In this document: positions 20,443 through 51,733 of the stretch, piece after piece
Layout of the letters: the number at the start of each line of letters is the position of its first letter
Position numbering within the stretch: position 1 is the first letter of the stretch
Source of the DNA: an uncultured Candidatus Saccharibacteria bacterium
Lineage (GTDB): Bacteria > Patescibacteriota > Saccharimonadia > Saccharimonadales > CAZARM01
Assembly: GCA_964463635.1 (NCBI GenBank)
Contig: CAYXCB010000002.1
Span: 1 to 62,260, forward strand
DNA length: 62,260 bases
Reading direction: 5' to 3'
Program-made: the position numbers and the translations under genes
Notes under the pieces: model-generated
Told to the model about the DNA's origin: nothing
The model's database searches: none
What the model saw: the letters and a program-made list of their open reading frames with translations, nothing else

Positions 20443-20661
20443 ATGGCTACTACAAAAAGCAGGCTCAATATCACTCTTACTCGTGAAGCAAAACGGGCTA
20501 TTGCTAAACTTGCCCAGCGTGATGAAGTACCTGATGCTACGCTTGCTGCTCGCTTGATTGAGACTGCACTTGAGTTGGAGGAGGACACCGTGTGGGATAC
20601 GCTTGCAACTGAGCGTGATACAAAACATGCTTCCTACGTTCCACACGATAAAGCTTGGTAG
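20443..20661 (+). CDS. type II antitoxin, ribbon-helix-helix family
   Basis: 72 aa. SRLNITLTREAKRAIAKLAQRDEVPDATLAARLIE. Overlaps the toxin start. Confidence 0.8.
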   Translation: MATTKSRLNITLTREAKRAIAKLAQRDEVPDATLAARLIETALELEEDTVWDTLATERDTKHASYVPHDKAW

Positions 20662-20939
20662 TAATGATTTTTGAAATAGCTTATCACGAGCTGGTGATAA
20701 CCAATGACATGCCTAAATTGTCCTCTGTCTGGAAAGACAGAATACGTAAAACGATTGAAGAACGTCTCACAATAAGACCAGATTTTTATGGCAAACCTCT
20801 CCGGAAGTCATTGAAGGGCTACCGTAAATTACGAGTTGAAGATTATCGAGTAATTTTTAAGGTTGAAAATAAAACAGTCAAAATATTGATGATCGCTCAT
20901 CGTTCAGTGGTGTACACAAAGATTAGCAAGCGAACATAG
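20655..20939 (+). CDS. type II toxin, RelE/ParE superfamily
   Basis: 94 aa. LKGYRKLRVEDYRVIFKVENKTVKILMIAHRSVVY. Confidence 0.85.
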   Translation: MVVMIFEIAYHELVITNDMPKLSSVWKDRIRKTIEERLTIRPDFYGKPLRKSLKGYRKLRVEDYRVIFKVENKTVKILMIAHRSVVYTKISKRT

Positions 20940-20961: not shown

Positions 20962-21037
20962 TGGTACACCCGGCGCGATGGTTACTTCTTGCGGCGTGCT
21001 CGGAGCCAGCTCCTGTGCGCGTCCTCGAAGATCGAAC
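20962..21037. repeat. exact 18-nt copy of the tRNA-Arg 3' end (20962-20979) plus a conserved 58-nt module (20980-21037)
   Basis: TGGTACACCCGGCGCGAT is identical to 21110-21127. The adjoining 58 nt match 22897-22954 at 53/58 positions. Confidence 0.65.
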
Positions 21038-21070
21038 GTCGCTCGAATCACGGCTCGACTATCGAGCAGA

Positions 21071-21097
21071 ATTTAAAACCGCCACGATGTGGCGGCC
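21071..21097 (-). terminator. intrinsic terminator after tRNA-Arg
   Basis: Minus strand: CCGCCAC-ATC-GTGGCGG followed by TTTTAAATT. Confidence 0.7.
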
Positions 21098-21109
21098 ATA
21101 AAATTCTCC

Positions 21110-22869: not shown

Positions 22870-22878
22870 AAATTTATT

Positions 22879-22954
22879 TGGCGGAGGAGGAGAGATGTTT
22901 ACTTCTTGCGGCGTGCTCGGAACAAGTTCCTGTGCTCGTCCTCGAAGATCGAAC
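22879..22954. repeat. exact 18-nt copy of the tRNA-Ser(GCU) 3' end (22879-22896) plus a conserved 58-nt module (22897-22954)
   Basis: TGGCGGAGGAGGAGAGAT is identical to 23031-23048. The module is homologous to 20980-21037. Confidence 0.65.
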
Positions 22955-22995
22955 TCTCTGCTTTCGCAGTACGAGTTCTCAAATCTACATGCCAA

Positions 22996-23021
22996 TTCAA
23001 AAACCCTGACTAAAGTCAGGG
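22996..23021 (-). terminator. intrinsic terminator after tRNA-Ser(GCU)
   Basis: Minus strand: CCCTGAC-TTTA-GTCAGGG followed by TTTTTGAATT. Confidence 0.7.
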
Positions 23022-23030
23022 CTCTCGAAT

Positions 23031-23302: not shown

Positions 23303-23983
23303 CTACTGCTTCTGAGCGAAGACGGCGCCATTGACGTGCTTGGCACCAGACGCTTTTAAAACTTTAGCGCAAGCACCTAGTGAAGCACCGGTGGTCACGA
23401 TGTCATCAATCAACAATATTGACAGGTCTTTTGTCGATTTATTGCTTTTCGGTCGAAAAGCTGACTCTAGCTGCTTCAGTCGCTGCTCGCGCTTAGCGCC
23501 GACCTGCCTGGTTTGGCCAATTCGGTGGAGCAGGGGCATAAATGATAAACCTCGCACCTTGGCAAAAGCCTTGGCGAGCTCAGCGGCCTGGTCGTAGCCG
23601 CGCTCGCGCACCCGGCTGGTAGCCGTTGGCACATAGCTGACAATCGTATCTGGTTTTAGATAGGGCAGCGTTTCGTCCATTTGCTCAGCTAAAAGCTTGG
23701 CTACGTCCTTAGCCCTTTCAAACTTATAAGCCCTGAGCAATTGCTTGGAGTATCCTTCGTATCCTGTGGCGACCCATACGTGGGACAGTGGGGTAAATCG
23801 TCGGCAGTTTTCACAGACCTTGCTGTCGATAGACATTTTATGACAGCGAAAACAGCGTTCAGGCAATGGCGCAAAAGCGTCAGGTTTGCACCAGGCGCAT
23901 AACAGAGACCCTTCGCGCCCACAACGCAGACAGCGGTATGGGGCTAGCAATTGAAACAGCTTCTCGAGTATCAACATGGCCAT
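23303..23983 (-). CDS. comFC: ComF family protein (ComFC-type phosphoribosyltransferase)
   Basis: N-terminal Cys clusters (CLRCG...CAWC, CFRCH...CENC) and PRTase motif ILLIDDIVTTGASL. Start placed at MAMLILEKL; the track ORF extends to 24037. Confidence 0.8.
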   Translation of the reverse strand: MAMLILEKLFQLLAPYRCLRCGREGSLLCAWCKPDAFAPLPERCFRCHKMSIDSKVCENCRRFTPLSHVWVATGYEGYSKQLLRAYKFERAKDVAKLLAEQMDETLPYLKPDTIVSYVPTATSRVRERGYDQAAELAKAFAKVRGLSFMPLLHRIGQTRQVGAKREQRLKQLESAFRPKSNKSTKDLSILLIDDIVTTGASLGACAKVLKASGAKHVNGAVFAQKQ

Positions 23984-24188
23984 ACTGTAGATAGTAACTT
24001 GGAAGTAGTAAATAGGCTTGCAAACTACAAATTTCAAGTGTCAAAATTCAGAAAAAGATCAAACTTCAATGCGCCAACAGTTTGGTATTTGATTCTCTGA
24101 AGTTTATCTGAAGTTTGATATTTGGTGTTTGAACTTTAGCGCTACTCAAGTGTTGTATTTATAGTGTTGTAAATAAGCTGTCTCGTAG

Positions 24189-24903: not shown

Positions 24904-25248
24904 TTAGATTTTAAGTGACTTAATAAACCCAGTCAGCAATCTTGAAATGTCCTTAGCTAGGATCAGGCGATTATCGGAATCCTTTATGTAACCATGCCCT
25001 TGACCAATTAACAGCATTGACCTTACCTCCGCCGCTGATCCTCTGGCGATTATAAGAAACTGTCTTAGCTCCTTATCAGACCCCCTGTCGAAGCCTTCGG
25101 CGATATTATTGCTAATTGATAGTGTCGCCCTTAATAATTGATCCTTGTAGGCGTATGCTCTGCAAGTTTCCATATCATGAACAACCAGACCATATAACAG
25201 TTTGGCTTTTTGCCAGGAAACAACGTCTTCGAAAGTCTTAATTGTCAT
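24904..25248 (-). CDS. four-helix-bundle protein (23S rRNA intervening-sequence protein family), cassette 1
   Basis: 114 aa. FEDVVSWQKAKLL...ISNNIAEGFDRGSDKELRQFLIIARGSAAEVRSML. Paralogous to 34560, 36027 and 45656. Confidence 0.85.
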   Translation of the reverse strand: MTIKTFEDVVSWQKAKLLYGLVVHDMETCRAYAYKDQLLRATLSISNNIAEGFDRGSDKELRQFLIIARGSAAEVRSMLLIGQGHGYIKDSDNRLILAKDISRLLTGFIKSLKI

Positions 25249-34525: not shown

Positions 34526-34553
34526 GGAGTACTGAGTACTTAGTACAGAGTAC
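34526..34553. repeat. heptanucleotide array flanking cassette 2 (GGAGTAC TGAGTAC TTAGTAC AGAGTAC)
   Basis: Lies between the PrgI-like stop (34520) and the cassette ORF stop (34560). Complementary to 35074..35108. Confidence 0.6.
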
Positions 34554-34559
34554 GGGCTG

Positions 34560-34910
34560 CTAAGACGGTAACTTTCGAATAAAACCAGCCAGTATCATCG
34601 ATACCTCGTTAACCTTTATTAGTAACTCCTTCTGTTCACCTTCTTTGATATAGCCTAGGTCCAACGCAATAATTAGCATGGACTCAACCTCAGCCGCCGA
34701 TCCTTTGGCAATAAAAAGATAGTTTTTAAACGATTTATTGCTCTGTTTGGCATAGCCTTCAGCCACGTTATTCATGATTGATATAACAGCGCGTTGAATT
34801 TGGTCTCTGAAACTATAATCTCGACAGTCATTAAACGCACTATAAATATTAACTGTCAGATCCCGCCCTTTTTGCCAAGCAAGTATTTCTTTAAATGATC
34901 TTATGGGCAT
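34560..34910 (-). CDS. four-helix-bundle protein (IVS-protein family), cassette 2, antisense to the T4SS operon
   Basis: MPIRSFKEILAWQKGRDL...IMNNVAEGYAKQSNKSFKNYLFIAKGSAAEVESML. Start set at the ATG that aligns with the paralogs; the track start (34934, GTG) lies in the repeat array. Confidence 0.85.
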   Translation of the reverse strand: MPIRSFKEILAWQKGRDLTVNIYSAFNDCRDYSFRDQIQRAVISIMNNVAEGYAKQSNKSFKNYLFIAKGSAAEVESMLIIALDLGYIKEGEQKELLIKVNEVSMILAGFIRKLPS

Positions 34911-34930
34911 TGCGTCTATTTTAGCACCTG

Positions 34931-34958
34931 GCACTCTGTACTACACACTTGGTACTAT
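34931..34958. repeat. heptanucleotide array, inner right arm of cassette 2 (GCACTCT GTACTAC ACACTTG GTACTAT)
   Basis: Four 7-nt units just upstream of the cassette ORF start. Confidence 0.5.
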
Positions 34959-35073
34959 AAGCGGTTTCCCCTATACTTGTATTATGTAGTCTTGTTCTTG
35001 TATGGTGGGAATTACTAATGAAAATTATAATCTTGAATACTAAAATTATATACAAATTTGCGACGTTAGATCT

Positions 35074-35108
35074 GTACTCCGTACTCTGTACTCCGTACTC
35101 TGTACTCC
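35074..35108. repeat. heptanucleotide array, outer right arm of cassette 2 ((GTACTCY)x5)
   Basis: GTACTCC GTACTCT GTACTCC GTACTCT GTACTCC. Reverse complement of the RGAGTAC units at 34526..34553. Ends 20 nt before the next T4SS gene. Confidence 0.65.
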
Positions 35109-35127: not shown

Positions 35128-36027
35128 ATGGACCCAAATACACAGAATCAAAACCCCAATAACATACCCGGACCAGCGGCTCCTGGCGTACCACCACCTC
35201 CGCAATATGCGCCCATGCCAGGTATGCCCCCTCAGTACGCTGCCGGACAGCCATCTGCCCAGCCCGGGCCGGCCACGCCGCCACCACCGCACGTAAAAAG
35301 CAACCCTAACAGTACCCAAAACACTTTGCAGATCGCTGAAATTCGCGACGGCGTTGTGATTATGAACGATGGGTCATTCCGTTCGGTTGTTATGGTCAAA
35401 TCGATTAACTTTGACCTGATGAGTCCCCAGGAGCAGGAAGCTGTCGAATTCAGTTTCCAGGGCTTCCTAAATTCATTATATTTCCCGGTTCAGATTTTTG
35501 TACGGTCGCAAAAGGTTGATCTGCGGCCATATATAGAGAAGCTAGATAAAATCCGCACCGAGCACGATAATATGCTACTCGCATTATTAATGGAAGATTA
35601 CATAGATTACATTGCTAATTTGTCTATGCAAACCAACATTATGGATAAACGTTTTTACGTTATAATCCCGTACTACCCGACTACTGATATTCAGAAAGCC
35701 ATCACTCAAAGTAAAGACTTTTTCTCCGGGCTTAAGGGCTTGTTTAGCAATAAGGAATCCCATGTCACTATCAATGAACAAGACCTGGTCAAAGCCAAAG
35801 ACGAGCTGCGCAACCGTGTCCAGTCGGTTTTGAATGGGCTGCAGCAGAGCGGGATCCAGGGTTTGCCGCTTGATACCCAGGAGTTAATCGAGCTCTACTA
35901 CGACACTTATAATCCTGATACAGCTACCCGGCAGCAACTCAAAAACTTTGATGATTTATCAGCCCCGGTTGTAGGCAAGGGCCAGGGCAGTGCGCCTCAG
36001 CCGCAGCTAGACAGGGAGCTCAAGTGA
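35128..36027 (+). CDS. T4SS-associated protein with a proline-rich N-terminus
   Basis: 299 aa. PGPAAPGVPPPPQYAPMPGMPPQY..., then a globular part (LQIAEIRDGVVIMNDGSFRSVVMVKSINFDLMSPQEQEAV). Sits between the PrgI-like gene and VirB4. Function unknown. Confidence 0.55.
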   Translation: MDPNTQNQNPNNIPGPAAPGVPPPPQYAPMPGMPPQYAAGQPSAQPGPATPPPPHVKSNPNSTQNTLQIAEIRDGVVIMNDGSFRSVVMVKSINFDLMSPQEQEAVEFSFQGFLNSLYFPVQIFVRSQKVDLRPYIEKLDKIRTEHDNMLLALLMEDYIDYIANLSMQTNIMDKRFYVIIPYYPTTDIQKAITQSKDFFSGLKGLFSNKESHVTINEQDLVKAKDELRNRVQSVLNGLQQSGIQGLPLDTQELIELYYDTYNPDTATRQQLKNFDDLSAPVVGKGQGSAPQPQLDRELK

Positions 36028-36428
36028 TGAAAACTGAAGCACGAAGCCCGAAAGCAGAAACAAGCACGAAGCCCGAAAGCAGAAACGTAAAACGTTTCGA
36101 TCTAGAGGATCGAACTCTATTATTCGCAAGGGACGTGCGAAGTTTTATTTCTCAGCTTCCTAAAACAACTGCTTATTTTGAGGATGGTAAACAAGTAGTA
36201 CGATCATCGGGATCAGTCGGTGCTAACTATTTAGAGGCGAACGAATCGCTTAGCAAGAAAGACTTTGCGATGCGGATCAAAATTGCTAAAAAAGAAGCCC
36301 GAGAGACTATATACTGGCTTGAGGTAATAACTGCTCCGCCAGAATTATTGGTAGCACAACAGTCTTTGCTAAAAGAAGCGACGGAATTGATGAACATATT
36401 AGGTGCAATTTTAAGGAAGAGTCAGTAA
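36027..36428 (+). CDS. four-helix-bundle protein (IVS-protein family), cassette 3, sense within the T4SS operon
   Basis: ATG overlaps the upstream stop (TGATG). The core RFDLEDRTLLFARDV...SVGANYLEANESLSKKDFAMRIKIAKKEARETIYWL is a diverged member of the family. The first ~20 codons are encoded by the repeat array. Confidence 0.75.
   Translation: MKTEARSPKAETSTKPESRNVKRFDLEDRTLLFARDVRSFISQLPKTTAYFEDGKQVVRSSGSVGANYLEANESLSKKDFAMRIKIAKKEARETIYWLEVITAPPELLVAQQSLLKEATELMNILGAILRKSQ
36036..36086. repeat. repeat array, left arm of cassette 3 (GAANNNN heptads; 23-nt GCACGAAGCCCGAAAGCAGAAAC present twice, period 25)
   Basis: Exact copies at 36039-36061 and 36064-36086. Contains CCCGAAA, which is complementary to the right arm. 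Confidence 0.65.
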
Positions 36429-42379: not shown

Positions 42380-43696
42380 GTGAACAAGAGAAAACTGGTA
42401 ATAATTACATTGGTAGTCCTGTTAGCGGCCTTAGTTGTGTGGCTACTCATCAGGAAAGACCCTAAACCACCCGAGACACTTGTCGCCAGTGAAATTGTTG
42501 CGACGAACATTAAGCATACCGACCAGTTGCCGCAGTCCAGCGATAGTTTAACCTTCTTCACCGGTACGGCTATCGCAGATATTACTTTCCCTAAGGGAGG
42601 TGGGGCGGCTATTAGTCTGACCGGGTTGGATGATGTGCCCTTTGAAGATGTAGACAAAATAAGTAGTAGTGATGATCTTACCCTCGTTCGAAGCTATTTT
42701 GATCCGGGATCGAGTCTATTGAATTTTGCCCCTGGTGCCAGACTTACGGGCAGAAGCGGGGCAGGCAAAAGCTGGTTTGTGATTAATAAAAGCGGGCAAG
42801 TTAGTCCGCTAACCTTGCAAAACCAAGATACGATCGCCGACGGCCTAGTCGATGGGGAGCAAATTTATCTGCTCGTGAACCAGTCGGGGGGCAAGCAGCA
42901 GCTAGTTTCCATTAAGGGAACCGCGGAGCCAAAAGTTGTTGCTGATGGATTAGCGGCAACCTCTTTTGTAGGAGCGTTAGAGGGCAGAATAGTAATGCGA
43001 GACTTCCGAGGGAAGGTATATATTCACTACGGAGGCGCGACGGACGAAGTCGCATCAAACGTTGGCGAAGTCTGGCTGGACAGAACGAGCGGTCGCTTGG
43101 TTTTGTCGCCAATAAATGAAAGTGAAGTTGGCGAAGAGGGGGGAATAGCCGCGAGCCAAACGACAGAAAAACCGCCGACAAAGGTAGATATTATCCGCGT
43201 GGATAGCCGAGAGAAACAAACTTTGACCCTGCCATATCCTATCTTTTTTGTAAGCAAAGGTTTTGTTTTAAGCGTACCAGAGCTAAGTAGGCCTTCACGG
43301 ATCGAGTTAAGCAACCTCGTAACGGAAGAACAGTTTGGTATTGCTATTGACCAGTCGGGCAACAAAGTAACAGGTCCGGTTAGCTCCTTGCATATATTAA
43401 AGGGCGATTTTAGTTTGATTGGCGCAATCACCACGAACAATCAGCTTGTCTTATACGGCGAGGGCGATTTTATCAAAAAACAAGCACCCGCCAAGCTGCC
43501 GATTGTTAAGTCCACTATTGGTCTATATGGCTACGAATATAATATTCGGGCTAATCAGTTAACGATCTTTTATGACTCTGCTGCCGATACGGATATTATC
43601 TCCGCTTCTTTGGTCTTGTTTGAAGACCAGTGTGACTGCGATATCAACCAGTTAAGCAAGCAGTGGCGAGAGACAGCGTCGGAACCCGGGCTTTAA
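42380..43696 (+). CDS. hypothetical N-terminally anchored extracytoplasmic protein, last gene of the T4SS operon
   Basis: 438 aa. One N-terminal TM (LVIITLVVLLAALVVWLLI) and a beta-rich remainder. Its position corresponds to PrgL/VirB8-like genes in Gram-positive systems, but this is a position-only argument. Confidence 0.5.
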   Translation: MNKRKLVIITLVVLLAALVVWLLIRKDPKPPETLVASEIVATNIKHTDQLPQSSDSLTFFTGTAIADITFPKGGGAAISLTGLDDVPFEDVDKISSSDDLTLVRSYFDPGSSLLNFAPGARLTGRSGAGKSWFVINKSGQVSPLTLQNQDTIADGLVDGEQIYLLVNQSGGKQQLVSIKGTAEPKVVADGLAATSFVGALEGRIVMRDFRGKVYIHYGGATDEVASNVGEVWLDRTSGRLVLSPINESEVGEEGGIAASQTTEKPPTKVDIIRVDSREKQTLTLPYPIFFVSKGFVLSVPELSRPSRIELSNLVTEEQFGIAIDQSGNKVTGPVSSLHILKGDFSLIGAITTNNQLVLYGEGDFIKKQAPAKLPIVKSTIGLYGYEYNIRANQLTIFYDSAADTDIISASLVLFEDQCDCDINQLSKQWRETASEPGL

Positions 43697-43709
43697 TAAT
43701 CAGCCAAGA

Positions 43710-43788
43710 GGGATGATGTGGCAGCGGTCCATGAAGTGCTGAACCACGACATCGGCGTCAGTAGTGGTTATAAACGTTTGATGGCCGC
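43710..43788. repeat. orphan copy of the last ~26 codons of recF (direct repeat of 44567..44645)
   Basis: 77/79 identical. Both mismatches are synonymous in the RecF frame. Stop codons lie immediately upstream in that frame. Confidence 0.8.
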
Positions 43789-43801
43789 ATCAACTTCAGT
43801 G

Positions 43802-43830
43802 TTGACTTTGTATACAATACTATGTATACT
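43802..43830 (+). promoter_or_regulatory. vapBC promoter with a palindromic operator (probably leaderless)
   Basis: TTGACT, 17-nt spacer containing TTGTATACAA, TATACT. The ATG at 43837 lies 6 nt after the -10. Confidence 0.6.
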
Positions 43831-43836
43831 GTAGGC

Positions 43837-44091
43837 ATGAAAAGTATACAATATACGATACGCAACATCCCTTCAACGGTGGATAAAGCCCTGCGCAACC
43901 GCGCACGCAAGCAAGGCAAGAGTTTCAACACAACGCTAGTGGATGCTCTCAAGGACGCCGCCGGCGTAGACAAAGACGCCAAAGAGTATCATGATCTCGA
44001 TTGGTTCTTCGGCAGTGGCATGATCGACAAGCAGGCATTCGATGAAGCACTGCGCGAGCAAAGAAAAATTGACCCAGAGATGTGGACGTGA
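43837..44091 (+). CDS. vapB: type II antitoxin (VapB/RHH-like)
   Basis: MKSIQYTIRNIPSTVDKALRNRARKQGKSFNTTLVDALK.... The start is moved to the second ATG because the first lies inside the -10. Confidence 0.75.
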   Translation: MKSIQYTIRNIPSTVDKALRNRARKQGKSFNTTLVDALKDAAGVDKDAKEYHDLDWFFGSGMIDKQAFDEALREQRKIDPEMWT

Positions 44092-44477
44092 TAGCCGTAG
44101 ATACGAACGCGTATAGTGACTTGGATGCCGGTAATGCATCATTGGAACAATTAGTGCGTGTTGAGGATATTATTGCTCTACCTGTTATCGTTATTGGAGA
44201 AATCCGTTTTGGCTTCGAACTCGGTAATAGAAAAGCGGTTAATGAAGGTCGGTTGACTGAATTCCTGAGAAACCAGCGCGTGAAAGTCCTGAATATCGAC
44301 GAGAAAACAACTACCGTATACGCCCAACTACACGCCGAACTCAGGAGCAAGGGGACGCCCATACCCGCTAACGATCTCTGGATCGCGGCACTTTGCTTGC
44401 AGTACGGCTGTCCGCTAGCAACTGCTGACAAACATTTCGATAATGTCCCGCTCTTGCAAACCATCACCGTAAAGTAG
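44082..44477 (+). CDS. vapC: PIN-domain toxin VapC
   Basis: 131 aa. ...IAVDTNAYSDL..., conserved acidic residues, ANDLWIAALCLQYGCPLATADKHF. GTG start overlapping the vapB stop. Confidence 0.85.
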   Translation: MDVIAVDTNAYSDLDAGNASLEQLVRVEDIIALPVIVIGEIRFGFELGNRKAVNEGRLTEFLRNQRVKVLNIDEKTTTVYAQLHAELRSKGTPIPANDLWIAALCLQYGCPLATADKHFDNVPLLQTITVK

Positions 44478-44527
44478 CCTTGGGAGACCTATCTTAAGCG
44501 CAAGTGTCGGGACACCTAATTTCTAGT

Positions 44528-44548
44528 TTCCAAGAACCGTCCTTGGAA
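44528..44548. terminator. hairpin TTCCAAG-AACCGTC-CTTGGAA between the convergent vapC and recF
   Basis: 7-bp stem. Same stem sequence family as 15022..15046. Confidence 0.4.
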
Positions 44549-44556
44549 TTGGCGGT

Positions 44557-45618
44557 TTACCTTAGGGGGATGATGTGGCAGCGGTCCATGAAGTGCTGGA
44601 CCACGACGTCGGCGTCAGTAGTGGTTATAAACGTTTGATGGCCGCTTAAAAAGTCGGTTAGGGCCCGTCGCCTGGAGCCATCAAGCTCGCTAAAAACATC
44701 ATCCAGTAGCAAGATGGGCCGCTGGTCGCGGGCTGCTTCAATTAGCTGCATTTCGACAATCTTTAGGCTCAAAACCATCGTCCGTACTTCGCCCCTGGAA
44801 GCTGCGTCGTCAGCAAGGTAGCCATTTAAGGAAACCTGCAAATCGTCCCGGTGCGGGCCGTAGGCCGTGAAGCCACGCTGATAGTCTAGCTCACTGCCTT
44901 GGTCTAGTTTGTGTAGTAGTTTCGAGCTGTAGTTCTCCGTGCCGCAAGAACTTTGATAGCTAATCTCGAGCTTGGCTTTGGTCTTGGACAGTTGGCGGTA
45001 AAGTTTTTGCACCGAACCGTTCAGTTTGGCCACCAGTTCTATGCGCCTAGCAGCTATTTGGCCGCCCAGTTCGCTCAGGCGAATATTCCAAGCGAACAGC
45101 TGTTGGTTAGCCTGATTAGGGTTTTGCTTGAGCAGGGCATTGCGCTGAGCCAGTGCCCGTTTGTATTGGCGGCGAACAATTCCAAAGCCGCCAATAGTTT
45201 GTTCTAGTAGATTATCCAGGAACTCCCGGCGGTGCTCCGGCGAGCCGTGCAGTAGTTGCAAATGGTTGGGCTCAAACAACACGACTGGCTGGGTTTTATG
45301 CAGCGGCAGCCGTATGTATGGATGATTGTCGACAATGAATGATTTCTTGATTCGAGCCGTGCCCTCAACCGCTTCCAGCTTAACCGTCCTGGAGCCATTC
45401 TCGCCGTGGCTGTCCAGCCTAGACCAGCTTTGGCCGTGTCTTATCAACTCGGGGTCGCGAACCCGGTAAGAGCCGCCCGCTGAAGCCACCAGCAGAGCTT
45501 CTAGTAGGTTGGTCTTGCCGCTGGCGTTCGGGCCAACAATTATATTAACGCCGGGATCGAGTTCAAAGGTTTCGTCCTGGTAGGAGCGAAAGTGCTGCAA
45601 GCGAATGTCGCTGATCAT
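44557..45618 (-). CDS. recF: DNA replication/repair protein RecF
   Basis: 353 aa. Walker A GPNASGKTNLLEAL, signature/Walker B region ILLLDDVFSELD. Confidence 0.93.
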   Translation of the reverse strand: MISDIRLQHFRSYQDETFELDPGVNIIVGPNASGKTNLLEALLVASAGGSYRVRDPELIRHGQSWSRLDSHGENGSRTVKLEAVEGTARIKKSFIVDNHPYIRLPLHKTQPVVLFEPNHLQLLHGSPEHRREFLDNLLEQTIGGFGIVRRQYKRALAQRNALLKQNPNQANQQLFAWNIRLSELGGQIAARRIELVAKLNGSVQKLYRQLSKTKAKLEISYQSSCGTENYSSKLLHKLDQGSELDYQRGFTAYGPHRDDLQVSLNGYLADDAASRGEVRTMVLSLKIVEMQLIEAARDQRPILLLDDVFSELDGSRRRALTDFLSGHQTFITTTDADVVVQHFMDRCHIIPLR

Positions 45619-45620
45619 AT

Positions 45621-45658
45621 GAGTATAAAGTCCATAAAGTTCTTAAAGTCTAAAGTCA
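45621..45658. repeat. short tandem repeat array (7-9-nt GTNNNTAAA units), left arm of cassette 4
   Basis: GAGTATAAA GTCCATAAA GTTCTTAAA GTCTAAA GTCATAG, between the recF start and the cassette ORF stop. Confidence 0.5.
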
Positions 45659-46000
45659 TAGGCTCTTTATAAATCCAGAAAGAAGTTTGGATGTTTCAAT
45701 AGCCAGATCTATAAGCTGCTTGGCACTTTTTTGTTCGATATAGCCCAGTTCTTCGCCCAGACGAACCATAGAGCGCACTTCGCCGCAAGAACCTTTTGCG
45801 ATGAACAGAAATTGTTTGAGTTCTTTGTTGCTTCTTCTCTCAAAACCCTCGGCAATATTATTCATAATCGAAACGCTTGCCCGTTGAAGTTGAGAGTTAT
45901 AACCAGCATCTCTAATTACCTTACATTCGAAATAGATCAGTTTTGTTAACTCTTTTGCTTTTTGCCAGGCTATTACTTCTTCAAAAGAGTTTATCGTCAT
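45656..46000 (-). CDS. four-helix-bundle protein (IVS-protein family), cassette 4, inside the dnaN-recF interval
   Basis: 114 aa. MTINSFEEVIAWQKAKELT...IMNNIAEGFERRSNKELKQFLFIAKGSCGEVRSMV. Confidence 0.85.
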   Translation of the reverse strand: MTINSFEEVIAWQKAKELTKLIYFECKVIRDAGYNSQLQRASVSIMNNIAEGFERRSNKELKQFLFIAKGSCGEVRSMVRLGEELGYIEQKSAKQLIDLAIETSKLLSGFIKSL

Positions 46001-51168: not shown

Positions 51169-51204
51169 CCATCATTAGACGTCCGATCGGACTCTTAATG
51201 ATGG
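51169..51204. repeat. palindromic element P2 (CCATCATTA-GAC-GTCCGATCGGAC-TCT-TAATGATGG)
   Basis: 9-bp outer stem plus the 12-nt palindromic core, between the convergent jag and 51207..51695. Confidence 0.6.
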
Positions 51205-51206
51205 AA

Positions 51207-51695
51207 CTATTTGGGATACAGTCTAGCGCATTCAAAAACCTGGACACATTTTTTTAACCCTAGTTCCTCAATTGCTCTTACGAGCTCTTTCTTGTAATCG
51301 AAATCGCTTATCCAAACGCTCTTTTGCGCTTGGGAAAAATGCCATTCACGCAGGAGTAGTCGAAACCTGCGGCGCATCCGGGCGTTTTCTTCTGGTATAT
51401 CAAAGATGACCATAAGCCTAGCAGTACCAATAAGTTTCTTTGGCTCAAAGGGCTGCAGTTCTCTCAAACCGCTCGCCGTTATTTCTAACAGGCTATCCTC
51501 GGTTTTTATTAAGCCGTCTTTTTTAGCTTTCCGAAATGTATTTTTTAATGATTCTTGCTTGAAACCTGATTGGCGCTCCAGGTCATTAAAAAACTTATGC
51601 GGGTGGAAGCTTAGTTGAATGTTCTCGCGAGTGTAGGGGATCAGCGCTTTGAGCAATATATGCAAGGAAGACTTTGGCTTAGTGGCATTACTCAT
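51207..51695 (-). CDS. putative regulator: winged-helix-like N-terminus plus a Cas2-fold/PaaX-C-like domain
   Basis: ...LMVIFDIPEENARMRRRFRLLLREWHFSQAQKSVWISD... resembles the beta-alpha-beta-beta-alpha-beta ferredoxin motif of Cas2/PaaX C-domains. Start set at MSNATKPK; the track start (51710) lies inside P3. Confidence 0.45.
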   Translation of the reverse strand: MSNATKPKSSLHILLKALIPYTRENIQLSFHPHKFFNDLERQSGFKQESLKNTFRKAKKDGLIKTEDSLLEITASGLRELQPFEPKKLIGTARLMVIFDIPEENARMRRRFRLLLREWHFSQAQKSVWISDFDYKKELVRAIEELGLKKCVQVFECARLYPK

Positions 51696-51733
51696 CCCAT
51701 CATTATACATCCGATCGGACGTCTAGTGATGGG
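51696..51733. repeat. palindromic element P3 (CCCATCATTA...TCCGATCGGACGTC...TAGTGATGGG), an inverted copy of P2
   Basis: Same outer-stem sequence as P2. The core flank ACGTC is on the opposite side. Abuts the start of 51207..51695. Confidence 0.6.

What the first reader, a model, noticed from the sequence alone, without database searches (positions are those of the whole stretch)
43710..44645. vapBC module inserted at the 3' end of recF, flanked by 79-bp direct repeats that duplicate the RecF C-terminus
Seen in sequence:
- 43710..43788 and 44567..44645 are 77/79 identical direct repeats.
- The right copy is the real end of recF (...GHQTFITTTDADVVVQHFMDRCHIIPLR*).
- The left copy is an orphan fragment (stop codons immediately upstream in frame) that would encode the same 26 residues.
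- Both nucleotide differences are synonymous (GAC/GAT, GTC/GTT).
- Between the repeats lie only a strong promoter with a TTGTATACAA operator, vapB, vapC and a hairpin, about 780 bp in all.

Established knowledge: integrative elements that target the 3' end of a gene carry a replacement copy of that end and leave exactly this repeat structure.

Inference: synonymous-only divergence implies both copies evolved as functional recF ends in different genomes. This points to site-specific insertion of a minimal, integrase-less TA cassette (mobilised in trans or reduced from a larger element).
Basis: partly seen in the sequence, partly recalled or inferred. Interest (0 to 1): 0.65.

Follow-up and report, generated by a model that had tools for sequence, protein, structure and literature searches.

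The report
Toxin-antitoxin cassette inserted at recF's end
A small toxin-antitoxin gene pair has been inserted at the very end of the DNA-repair gene recF in an uncultured Saccharibacteria genome, bringing a replacement gene end with it. Other Saccharibacteria carry different small cassettes at the same spot, and none has a visible integrase.

Summary
Positions 43710-43788 and 44567-44645 are 77/79 identical; the full repeat is 82 nt, or 89 nt in codon register including each copy's own stop. Between the copies lie only a sigma-70-like promoter, an RHH antitoxin and a PIN toxin (vapBC).

The left copy is the displaced native recF end (…IIPLG*). It abuts the convergent neighbour gene, and the nearest relatives end the same way at an uninterrupted site. 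The right copy (…IIPLR*) came with the insert.

I found the same architecture in independent assemblies, with different cargo:
- L021, L098 and L110: 3 of about 140 surveyed recF loci.
- L182 and L183, found through ParE toxin relatives.
- L177-L181, with only a weak orphan.

Across three pairs of copies, 9 of 10 differences are synonymous, so both copies evolved as working recF ends.

Junction positions and filler differ in every event. No recombinase lies in the window or next to recF in the surveyed loci. Site-specific integration is therefore not supported.

The best fit is recombination anchored on the conserved recF end plus an illegitimate join, during natural transformation. This is the known class "insertion with long target duplication". 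The mechanism is inferred, not shown. The reads are too shallow to test for empty sites or circles.

The parts
42380..43696 (+). Convergent neighbour gene 'X' (438 aa). It has no Pfam domain and is the last gene of the T4SS-like cluster. Its stop lies 3 nt from the orphan recF stop.
   Evidence: ORF list; no Pfam or NCBIfam hit; no detectable similarity to the genes downstream of recF in other loci. Relatives carry a different 498-524 aa gene at this position, overlapping recF by 4 nt.
43700..43788 (-). Orphan copy of the recF 3' end. It encodes GHQTF…IIPLG plus a TGA stop at 43700-43702, and is inferred to be the displaced native end. In-frame TGA codons lie directly upstream (43790-43792 and 43796-43798).
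   Evidence: The …IIPLG ending matches the closest RecF relatives. Its position next to X mirrors the uninterrupted arrangement in L003-L011.
43802..43830 (+). Promoter-like site: TTGACT (43802-43807), 17-nt spacer, TATACT (43825-43830). The palindrome TTGTATACAA lies at 43808-43817. GTATAC motifs lie at 43810-43815, 43824-43829 and 43844-43849 and are candidate VapB operators.
   Evidence: 10 of 12 consensus positions; sequence read. Operator function is inferred from how RHH antitoxins usually autoregulate.
43837..44091 (+). vapB antitoxin, FitA-like ribbon-helix-helix. The mechanical ORF starts at 43822, but that ATG overlaps the -10 box. The likely start is the ATG at 43837 (84 aa), which would give a leaderless or near-leaderless mRNA.
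   Evidence: Pfam PF22513, E = 2e-6, 28.1 bits against a cutoff of 27. The choice of start is my inference from the promoter position.
44088..44477 (+). vapC toxin with a PIN domain (129 aa from the GTG at 44088). It overlaps the vapB stop by 4 nt (GTGA). Acidic residues are present in DTN, GEI, NDLW and TAD contexts.
   Evidence: Pfam PF01850, E = 3.5e-15. NCBIfam VapC models hit below their cutoffs. The database gene call is 129 aa (P0001). The nearest relative is only 52% identical.
44478..44556 (.). 79-nt spacer between the vapC stop and the recF stop. It contains a weak 7-bp hairpin (44528-44548) and supplies recF's new last codon (AGG, Arg) and TAA stop.
   Evidence: No terminator was predicted, and folding is no better than shuffles.
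44557..44645 (-). Functional recF 3' end (the right repeat copy), ending …IIPLR*. It is inferred to have arrived with the cassette.
   Evidence: Its final codon and stop differ from the orphan and from the relatives.
44557..45618 (-). recF, intact (353 aa).
   Evidence: TIGR00611 recF, E = 1.6e-92, 310 bits against a cutoff of 172; Pfam SMC_N.
45656..46000 (-). Four-helix-bundle gene (23S_rRNA_IVP family) inserted between dnaN and recF. It has low GC (39%) and imperfect inverted repeats on both sides. It is not part of the vapBC insert, but it co-occurs with recF-end cassettes in other lineages.
   Evidence: Pfam PF05635, E = 1e-29; GC; absent from the nearest relatives; association counts.

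Best explanation
A 775-bp vapBC toxin-antitoxin cassette (promoter, RHH antitoxin, PIN toxin) was inserted at the last codons of recF in a Saccharibacteria chromosome.

The incoming DNA came from a related bacterium in which the cassette already lay just downstream of recF. It therefore carried its own recF end.

Proposed steps:
1. The cell took up the DNA.
2. The conserved recF sequence served as the homologous anchor for recombination.
3. The far end of the incoming DNA, beyond the vapB promoter, was joined illegitimately to the resident chromosome inside the resident recF's last ~90 nt.

The result is recF reading through a donor-derived end (…IIPLR*), then the cassette, then the resident recF end as a non-coding orphan (…IIPLG*), then the intact neighbour gene.

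The duplication is needed because recF and its convergent neighbour abut or overlap. Only insertions that re-create recF's end and leave the neighbour's end untouched keep both genes.

This is the known class 'insertion with long target duplication'. It most likely arose by homology-facilitated illegitimate recombination in a naturally competent lineage.

The boundary between conserved recF and the hypervariable gene beside it is a recurrent hotspot for such integrase-less cassettes.

Shown: the insertion, which copy is native, the recurrence, the variable junctions, and the absence of a recombinase nearby. Inferred: the donor, the uptake route and the recombination steps.
For: 1. Empty sites exist. 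In L003-L011 (RecF 75-76% identical) recF overlaps the convergent gene by 4 nt and there is no vapBC. Across about 75 GTDB loci recF nearly always abuts a convergent gene of variable size.

2. The orphan is native. It abuts gene X and ends IIPLG + stop, as the closest RecF proteins do. The functional copy ends IIPLR.

3. The architecture recurs in independent assemblies with different cargo:
- L021: a 266-aa membrane protein, ~40-nt orphan.
- L098: a Cas2/PaaX_M-like gene flanked by inverted repeats, 113-nt orphan at about 75% identity with an internal stop.
- L110: a ParE toxin-antitoxin pair, 27-nt orphan ending YKK*, as in its empty-site relative L172.
- L182: the same ParE pair family, 134-nt orphan.
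- L183: the same family, 108-nt orphan.
- L177-L181: the same family, with only a weak orphan.

4. In every event the cargo is convergent with recF, and the cassette's end abuts recF's stop.

5. Differences between the copies are 9 synonymous to 1 non-synonymous. P is about 8e-4 under in-situ duplication plus decay. The two copies are therefore alleles that both evolved as coding ends.

6. The upstream edge of the orphan falls at a different codon in each event: G326 in the window, about R315, Y341 and H346 in the survey events, then V307 and about R316 in the ParE family. Filler between orphan and cassette is unrelated between L182, L183, L110 and L177, although the cassette promoter is homologous.

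7. No recombinase or transposase was found in the window or next to recF elsewhere.

8. Self-comparison of 1.58 Mb of recF-centred loci found gene-end duplications only at recF.

9. Saccharibacteria are naturally competent through ComEC and integrate DNA by homologous recombination (PMC10633639).

10. The known classes match:
- Insertion with long, variable target duplication, lacking mobility genes, often spanning stop codons and mostly in competent species, is described for restriction-modification systems (PMC2853133).
- Homology-facilitated illegitimate recombination joins one homologous and one illegitimate end (PMC3240628 abstract).
Against: - No donor genome is known. The nearest VapC is 52% identical and does not lie at recF. 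The claim that the cassette sat downstream of recF in the donor is therefore inference for this window.
- Microhomology at the illegitimate joint cannot be checked without the donor.
- Only 62 kb of the genome is available, so a trans-acting recombinase elsewhere is not excluded.
- The proximal 44 nt of the repeat are identical and differences increase distally. An att core with a diverged gene-end mimic would show the same pattern.
- All orphans seen are 134 nt or shorter. A purely random joint within recF would also give longer ones, so an extra assumption is needed, such as instability of long repeats.
- The left copy and its junctions are not covered by the public unitigs. The single-base differences between the copies could in principle come from mixing of strains during assembly.
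- No experiment shows homology-facilitated illegitimate recombination in Saccharibacteria.
Confidence: 0.55

Rival explanations
1. Site-specific integration. The cassette is a non-autonomous integrative element. Its attP mimics the recF 3' end, and a tyrosine recombinase encoded elsewhere inserts it, as with cis-mobilizable elements or satellite elements.
For: - Direct repeats made of a gene's 3' end, with a replacement end that differs only synonymously, are the classic signature of such elements (established knowledge: phage 21 and e14 at icd, ICESt1 at fda).
- The proximal 44 nt are identical and the distal part diverges, as expected for a crossover core followed by a mimic.
- Cassettes recur at the same gene end in several lineages.
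- The same genome carries tRNA 3'-end duplications next to a conserved block that ends in a recombinase-core-like inverted repeat.
- Xer-like tyrosine recombinases exist in Saccharibacteria (L190).
Against: - No integrase was found in the window or adjacent to recF in about 140 loci.
- The upstream edge of the repeat sits at a different recF codon in each event, and the repeats are 27-134 nt long.
- Filler at the junction is unrelated even within one cassette family.
- No motif is shared at the insert ends of the window, L021, L098 and L110 (sequences read).
- The tRNA-associated block is absent from all recF loci.
Confidence: 0.2
2. Campbell-type integration by the host's homologous recombination. 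A fragment holding a recF end plus the cassette first circularised, and then entered the resident recF end by a single RecA-dependent crossover. The illegitimate step is the circularisation, not the insertion.
For: - It gives the same end product: two allelic recF ends flanking the cargo.
- It accounts for synonymous-only differences.
- It accounts for repeat lengths that vary with how much of recF the fragment held.
- It needs no site-specific recombinase.
- The 82-nt repeat at 96% identity in the window is long enough for RecA-mediated crossover (established knowledge of minimal homology lengths).
Against: - Homology of about 27 nt (L110) or about 75% identity over 113 nt (L098) is poor substrate for a RecA crossover, unless those orphans were trimmed or decayed later.
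- Natural transformation imports single strands, which makes a double-stranded circular intermediate less direct.
- The present data cannot separate this model from the best explanation.
Confidence: 0.15
3. Duplication in place. The recF end was duplicated locally, either as a very long target-site duplication or as a tandem duplication, and vapBC then came to lie between the copies. The differences are later drift.
For: - The two copies are 96% identical and in direct orientation.
- Insertions with long target duplication are often described in this way (PMC2853133).
Against: - 9 of 10 differences across three events are synonymous, P about 8e-4.
- Five of the 10 nt at the distal end differ, including the last codon and the stop codon, against 2 of the next 79.
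- The sequence after the right copy is not the neighbour gene's end, so this is not a tandem duplication.
Confidence: 0.04
4. Assembly artefact. Two strains, one with and one without vapBC downstream of recF, were stitched together through the shared recF end.
For: - The contig is a singleton from a low-coverage permafrost metagenome.
- Public unitigs do not cover 43600-43799, the left copy and its junctions.
- The two internal differences look like strain-level variants.
Against: - A graph path from the left copy into the vapB promoter needs recF-end sequence directly upstream of that promoter in a real molecule. The duplication itself cannot be purely artefactual (inference).
- Coverage of X, vapBC and recF is uniform at about 4-6x.
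- Unitigs break exactly at the repeat edges, as expected for a true repeat.
- The same architecture appears in at least five other independent assemblies.
Confidence: 0.04

Closest known systems
Insertion with long target duplication (Nobusato et al. 2000, Gene 259:99; Furuta, Abe & Kobayashi 2010, PMC2853133)
   Same: - A small addiction-type gene unit with no mobility gene.
- Direct repeats longer than 30 bp, of variable length, that correspond to single-copy sequence at the empty site in related genomes.
- Repeats often span a stop codon, so the target gene stays intact.
- Found mostly in naturally competent bacteria.
- Mechanism unknown.
   Different: - The described cases carry restriction-modification genes in Proteobacteria, Thermus and others. 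Here the cargo is toxin-antitoxin pairs and other single-gene cassettes in Saccharibacteria.
- The same gene end (recF) is hit repeatedly in separate lineages.
- One ParE toxin-antitoxin family stays attached to it.
- The two copies look like alleles from different genomes (synonymous differences, different last codons), not two copies of one target.
Homology-facilitated illegitimate recombination during natural transformation (de Vries & Wackernagel 2002, from my own knowledge; definition in the PMC3240628 abstract)
   Same: One end of the incoming DNA recombines through homology, and the other is joined illegitimately at a variable point. It needs no element-encoded enzyme and is known from naturally competent species.
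   Different: It has never been shown in Saccharibacteria. Microhomology at the joint cannot be checked here. Described events usually delete resident DNA, whereas here the net result looks like a duplication because the donor loop carries its own copy of the gene end.
Integrase-mediated elements that replace a gene's 3' end: phage 21 and e14 at icd, ICESt1/ICESt3 at fda and their integrase-less CIME derivatives, and tRNA-targeting islands (from my own knowledge)
   Same: Direct repeats made from the target gene's 3' end. The replacement end keeps the gene functional and differs mainly at synonymous sites. The native end is displaced to the far side of the element.
   Different: There is no integrase in or near the insert. 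Junction positions vary between events, and no shared core or arm sequences were found. The inserts are 0.7-1 kb with one or two genes.
VapBC type II toxin-antitoxin modules (PIN toxin with RHH antitoxin, FitAB-like)
   Same: Gene order is antitoxin then toxin, with a 4-nt overlap. It has a PIN domain with acidic active-site residues, a FitA-like RHH antitoxin, and palindromes in the promoter.
   Different: The closest VapC in about 5.8 billion protein clusters is only 52% identical. The NCBIfam VapC equivalog cutoffs are not reached, so its RNA target cannot be assigned.

Membership tests
VapBC type II toxin-antitoxin | Toxin has a PIN domain | tested here: met
   PF01850, E = 3.5e-15, 57 bits against a cutoff of 23.6. 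Acidic residues in DTN, GEI, NDLW and TAD contexts were seen by eye in the translation.
VapBC type II toxin-antitoxin | A small DNA-binding antitoxin is encoded directly upstream and is translationally coupled | tested here: met
   PF22513 FitA-like RHH, 28.1 bits against a cutoff of 27. The vapB stop and the vapC GTG start overlap by 4 nt.
VapBC type II toxin-antitoxin | The toxin arrests growth and the antitoxin neutralises it; the promoter is autoregulated | not testable with these tools
   Only a consensus promoter and GTATAC palindromes are seen.
VapC tRNA(fMet)-specific endonuclease equivalogs (NCBIfam) | Score above the curated equivalog cutoff | tested here: not met
   NF047863 scored 52 bits against 140, and NF047959 39 bits against 80. 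The assignment holds at family level only.
Integrase-mediated element targeting a gene 3' end (including integrase-less CIME-like derivatives) | Element flanked by direct repeats made of the target gene's 3' end, with the gene reconstituted | tested here: met
Integrase-mediated element targeting a gene 3' end (including integrase-less CIME-like derivatives) | A tyrosine or serine recombinase lies in the element or is available in the genome | tested here: inconclusive
   None in the insert or in the 62-kb window. None next to recF in about 140 loci. The rest of the genome is not available.
Integrase-mediated element targeting a gene 3' end (including integrase-less CIME-like derivatives) | The same crossover position or core in independent insertions | tested here: not met
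   The upstream repeat edge falls at G326, about R315, Y341, H346, V307 and about R316 in six events. Repeats are 27-134 nt. Junction filler is unrelated.
Integrase-mediated element targeting a gene 3' end (including integrase-less CIME-like derivatives) | Precise excision to a circle and an empty site within the population | not testable with these tools
   Only 4-6x unitigs of two runs are available. No joints were seen, and the left junction is uncovered.
Insertion with long target duplication | Insert shorter than 20 kb with no mobility gene | tested here: met
   The 775-bp insert holds only the promoter, vapB and vapC.
Insertion with long target duplication | Flanking direct repeat longer than 30 bp that is single-copy at the empty site of a related genome | tested here: met
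   82-nt repeat. There is a single recF end in L003-L011. Those relatives are only about 75% identical in RecF, so the exact target sequence is not known. L110 against its relative L172 gives the same result.
Insertion with long target duplication | The repeat spans a start or stop codon, so the target gene stays intact | tested here: met
   recF is full length and scores above the recF equivalog cutoff. The repeat covers its last 27 codons.
Insertion with long target duplication | Cargo is a restriction-modification system, as in all described cases | tested here: not met
   The cargo is a toxin-antitoxin pair here and in L110, L182 and L183. Other events carry a membrane protein or a Cas2-like gene. 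The original papers treat this as a property of the described cases, not a mechanistic requirement.
Homology-facilitated illegitimate recombination | Homologous anchor at one end and a variable illegitimate joint at the other | tested here: inconclusive
   Consistent with the data. The cassette's recF side is tight and conserved (0-10 nt in the ParE family), and the far junction varies. The donor is unknown, so microhomology and the anchor cannot be demonstrated.
Homology-facilitated illegitimate recombination | The host takes up DNA by natural transformation | not testable with these tools
   Shown for cultured Saccharibacteria (PMC10633639). The window ORF 23303-24037 looks like ComF by eye but was not scanned.

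The most novel reading that the evidence does not exclude
The recF 3' end of Saccharibacteria is a phylum-wide cassette-capture site that needs no recombinase. Small selfish or accessory cassettes sit directly downstream of this conserved core gene: toxin-antitoxin pairs, Cas2-like genes and others. They spread between lineages by using recF as their homology arm during natural transformation. Each transfer leaves the recipient's own recF end behind as an orphan. This would be a way for addiction modules to be mobile and site-faithful without encoding or borrowing any recombinase. It may be linked to the four-helix-bundle cassettes that insert on the other side of recF.
Probability: 0.35. Interest if true: 0.7.

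Novelty: new variant of a known kind. Interest (0 to 1): 0.55.

Why it matters
How genomes as small as those of Saccharibacteria and other CPR bacteria gain and exchange accessory genes is poorly understood.

This locus shows toxin-antitoxin pairs and other one-gene cassettes entering repeatedly at one precise place. That place is the junction between a conserved core gene and a hypervariable gene next to the type IV secretion cluster near the replication origin. No integrase or transposase is in sight.

If the recombination model is right:
- Conserved gene ends can act as portable homology arms that make cassettes mobile and site-faithful.
- 'Insertion with long target duplication' extends from restriction-modification systems to toxin-antitoxin systems and to a new phylum.
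- There is a concrete experiment, because Saccharibacteria can now be transformed.

Orphan gene ends are also a simple marker for recent gene gain in metagenome-assembled genomes.

Tried and rejected
- **Exact-protein look-ups.** Look-ups of the window's X protein and VapC found nothing. The contig is a singleton.
- **Single-protein scan.** The scan of GTDB genomes with RecF alone found only distant relatives. An alignment query was needed.
- **Peptide-motif scan.** My first motif scan for second recF ends was too strict and missed most loci. I replaced it with tail-against-locus alignment.
- **Reads.** Only two shallow runs hold the sequence. There were no joints, and the left copy is uncovered. 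Empty sites and circles could therefore not be tested.
- **Composition.** The insert's GC (48%) does not stand out from its flanks.
- **Terminator or hairpin after vapC.** Not supported.
- **Was the whole recF replaced by a foreign copy?** RecF identity tracks DnaN and DnaA identity for the event loci within noise, so there is no resolution at this depth.
- **Duplications flanking the four-helix-bundle gene.** There are no direct repeats, only inverted repeats.
- **Nearest VapC relatives.** They lie in unrelated contexts with no orphan gene ends, including one convergent with gyrB.
- **tRNA-associated block as a shared recombination site.** It is absent from all recF loci.
- **Integrases near the tRNA blocks.** One Xer-like gene among 82 neighbouring ORFs, so no enrichment.
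- **Literature.** A search for Saccharibacteria with toxin-antitoxin and recF found nothing relevant.


Full report
**1. The observation**

The repeat is real.
- Positions 43710-43788 and 44567-44645 differ at two positions, giving 77/79.
- No shuffle of the window gives a match.
- The ungapped repeat is 82 nt: 43707-43788 and 44564-44645.

Read in recF's frame (minus strand), each copy runs to a stop codon of its own.
- The left copy encodes GHQTFITTTDADVVVQHFMDRCHIIPLG, then TGA (43700-43702).
- The right copy is the true end of a full-length recF (TIGR00611, 310 bits). It encodes the same residues, then R and TAA.
- Four codons differ, all synonymously (D, V, P, L).
- The last codon (GGC or AGG) and the stop differ.
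- In-frame stops lie directly upstream of the left copy.

Between the copies are:
- a good sigma-70-type promoter (TTGACT-17-TATACT) with TTGTATACAA and two further GTATAC palindromes;
- a FitA-like RHH antitoxin;
- a PIN toxin that overlaps the antitoxin by 4 nt.

The 'hairpin' after vapC is weak. No terminator was predicted, and it folds no better than shuffles.

**2. Organism and setting**

The window is a singleton contig from a permafrost metagenome.
- The gene order is rnpA-yidC-jag / dnaA-dnaN-recF, next to a type IV secretion-like cluster. That cluster holds PrgI, T4SS pilins, a VirB4 homologue and cell-wall hydrolases.
- The best RecF relatives are Saccharibacteria.
- That this secretion cluster lies close to dnaA and dnaN in CPR bacteria has been reported (bioRxiv 10.1101/2025.01.22.634366).

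**3. It is an insertion, and the left copy is the native end**

- The closest relatives (RecF 75-76% identical; L003-L011) have recF convergent with the next gene and overlapping it by 4 nt. They have no vapBC.
- Across about 75 Saccharibacteria genomes, recF nearly always abuts or overlaps a convergent gene of very variable size and sequence.
- The orphan sits 3 nt from the neighbour's stop, exactly where recF's end should be.
- The orphan ends IIPLG as the closest RecF proteins do. The functional copy ends IIPLR.
- The native end was therefore displaced. The functional end, at least its last codon and stop, came with the insert.

**4. The same thing happened elsewhere**

I aligned each recF tail against the sequence downstream of it. 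The sample was 80 GTDB loci and 80 metagenome loci, of which about 140 were usable. Three more cases turned up.

| Locus | Cargo | Orphan |
|---|---|---|
| L021 | 266-aa membrane protein | ~40 nt |
| L098 | Cas2/PaaX_M-like gene flanked by inverted repeats | 113 nt, ~75% identical, one internal stop |
| L110 | ParE toxin with its antitoxin | 27 nt, ending YKK* |

The empty-site relative of L110, L172, has a recF that ends YKK*.

Relatives of the L110 toxin (67-71% identical) lie at the same place in other lineages.
- L182 has a 134-nt orphan that is an intact reading frame.
- L183 has a 108-nt orphan.
- L177-L181 have only a weak remnant.
- In two further contigs (L184, L185) this toxin-antitoxin family lies elsewhere.

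In every event the cargo is convergent with recF, its end abuts recF's stop, and the orphan abuts the resident neighbour gene.

Self-comparison of 1.58 Mb of these loci found gene-end duplications only at recF.

**5. What the two copies tell us**

- In the three high-identity events, 9 of 10 differences between the copies are synonymous.
- The probability is about 8e-4 if a local duplication was followed by neutral decay of the orphan and purifying selection on the other copy.
- The tails after the conserved IIPL motif differ between the copies in each event.
- The two copies are therefore alleles that both evolved as working recF ends.
- The incoming DNA thus carried a recF end from a related genome.

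**6. Site-specific or not**

- I found no recombinase or transposase domain in the window.
- I found none among the genes next to recF in the surveyed loci.
- The upstream edge of the orphan falls at a different recF codon in each of six events.
- Within the one ParE cassette family the promoter region is homologous. The sequence between it and the orphan is unrelated in L182, L183, L110 and L177.
- A single crossover core does not fit this.
- The toxin side of the cassette, in contrast, is always tight against recF's stop.

**7. Mechanism proposed**

The pattern fits a conserved join on the recF side and a variable join on the far side.
- Recombination is anchored on recF homology.
- An illegitimate joint forms at the other end, inside the resident recF's last ~30-130 nt.
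- The donor strand carries its own recF end, so the resident end survives as an orphan.
- recF and its neighbour abut, so only such events keep both genes whole.
- The neighbour is hypervariable, so no homology is available on that side.

This matches two known descriptions.
- 'Insertion with long target duplication' was described for restriction-modification systems. It lacks mobility genes, has repeats of variable length that often span stop codons, and occurs mostly in competent species (PMC2853133).
- Homology-facilitated illegitimate recombination joins one homologous end and one illegitimate end (PMC3240628).

Saccharibacteria are naturally competent (PMC10633639).

The steps are inferred. 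For this window the donor is unknown, because the nearest VapC is 52% identical and lies in unrelated contexts.

**8. Limits**

- Only 62 kb of the genome is available.
- Public reads are 4-6x unitigs that do not cover the left copy or its junctions.
- Strain mixing could therefore have shaped the single-base differences in this one contig, though not the architecture.
- A trans-acting recombinase elsewhere remains possible. I give that model 0.2.

**9. Verdict**

- The insertion and the replacement-end reading are supported.
- The integrase reading is not supported.
- The case is a new variant of a known kind.
- What makes it interesting is the recurrence at one gene end across a phylum, and a cassette family that stays attached to that end.

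Noticed in passing
window 20962-21109 and 22878-23030; also L186, L187, L189-L198, L200, L202, L205-L209: Downstream of tRNA-Arg(gcg) and tRNA-Ser(gct) lies a second copy of each tRNA's 3' end (18-19 nt: CCA, acceptor strand and T stem). In that copy the T loop is interrupted by a ~52-nt block, TTCTTGCGGCGTGCTCGGA-hairpin-TCCTG.GCGCGTCCTCGAA.ATCGAAC. The block's 19-mer occurs in about 19 Saccharibacteria genomes, in most of those examined beside a 3'-end copy of the neighbouring tRNA (in L198, L207 and L209 the copy is not evident next to the block), and the tRNA differs between genomes. Two pairs of its inner stem covary (GC/AU 9:9 and CG/UA 11:6). There is no Rfam match. It could be a miniature integrative element or att remnant aimed at tRNA T loops, or a tRNA-like RNA.
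   Followed up: partly
window 45656-46000; L012, L013, L017, L021, L033, L098, L110, L116: A four-helix-bundle gene (23S_rRNA_IVP family) lies between dnaN and recF in only 8 of 149 surveyed loci. Those 8 include all 3 surveyed loci with a recF-end cassette, and the window has one too (Fisher P about 1e-4). The genes belong to different subfamilies, so they were inserted independently. Each is flanked by inverted repeats, like a ribosomal intervening sequence. L177, which has the ParE cassette, lacks one. The association is unexplained.
   Followed up: partly
window 51169-51732; L098 5985-6580: A 167-aa Cas2/PaaX_M-like gene is flanked by 36-nt inverted repeats with a TCCGATCGGA core, just downstream of jag. 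The same kind of cassette, with similar inverted repeats, is the cargo at the recF end in L098. It looks like a mobile single-gene cassette family.
   Followed up: partly
window 20443-20939: A second toxin-antitoxin pair (RHH antitoxin with a ParE-family toxin) lies directly beside the orphan tRNA-Arg 3' end.
   Followed up: partly
window 34526-35108, 24904-25248, 36024-36428: Three more 23S_rRNA_IVP four-helix-bundle genes occur in the window. One (34560-34934) is flanked by 30-nt inverted repeats inside the type IV secretion cluster.
   Followed up: no
L174 4282-4931: In another lineage a PIN/RHH toxin-antitoxin pair sits between dnaN and recF, the slot the four-helix-bundle gene occupies elsewhere. 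Its toxin overlaps the end of dnaN. No flanking repeat was found. Both sides of recF therefore take up cassettes.
   Followed up: partly
L012 3770-3830 and 4452-4511: A 204-aa gene is flanked by two copies of a ~60-nt terminator-like sequence (85% identical), each starting at a gene's stop codon. This may be another cassette inserted with duplication of its target.
   Followed up: no
window against L003, L005, L012, L017, L174 (dnaA, dnaN, recF): RecF identity does not track DnaA identity across lineages. For example, the window against L012 gives DnaA 83% and RecF 59%, while against L003 it gives DnaA 81% and RecF 75%. This may reflect uneven rates or past replacement of recF alleles.
   Followed up: partly
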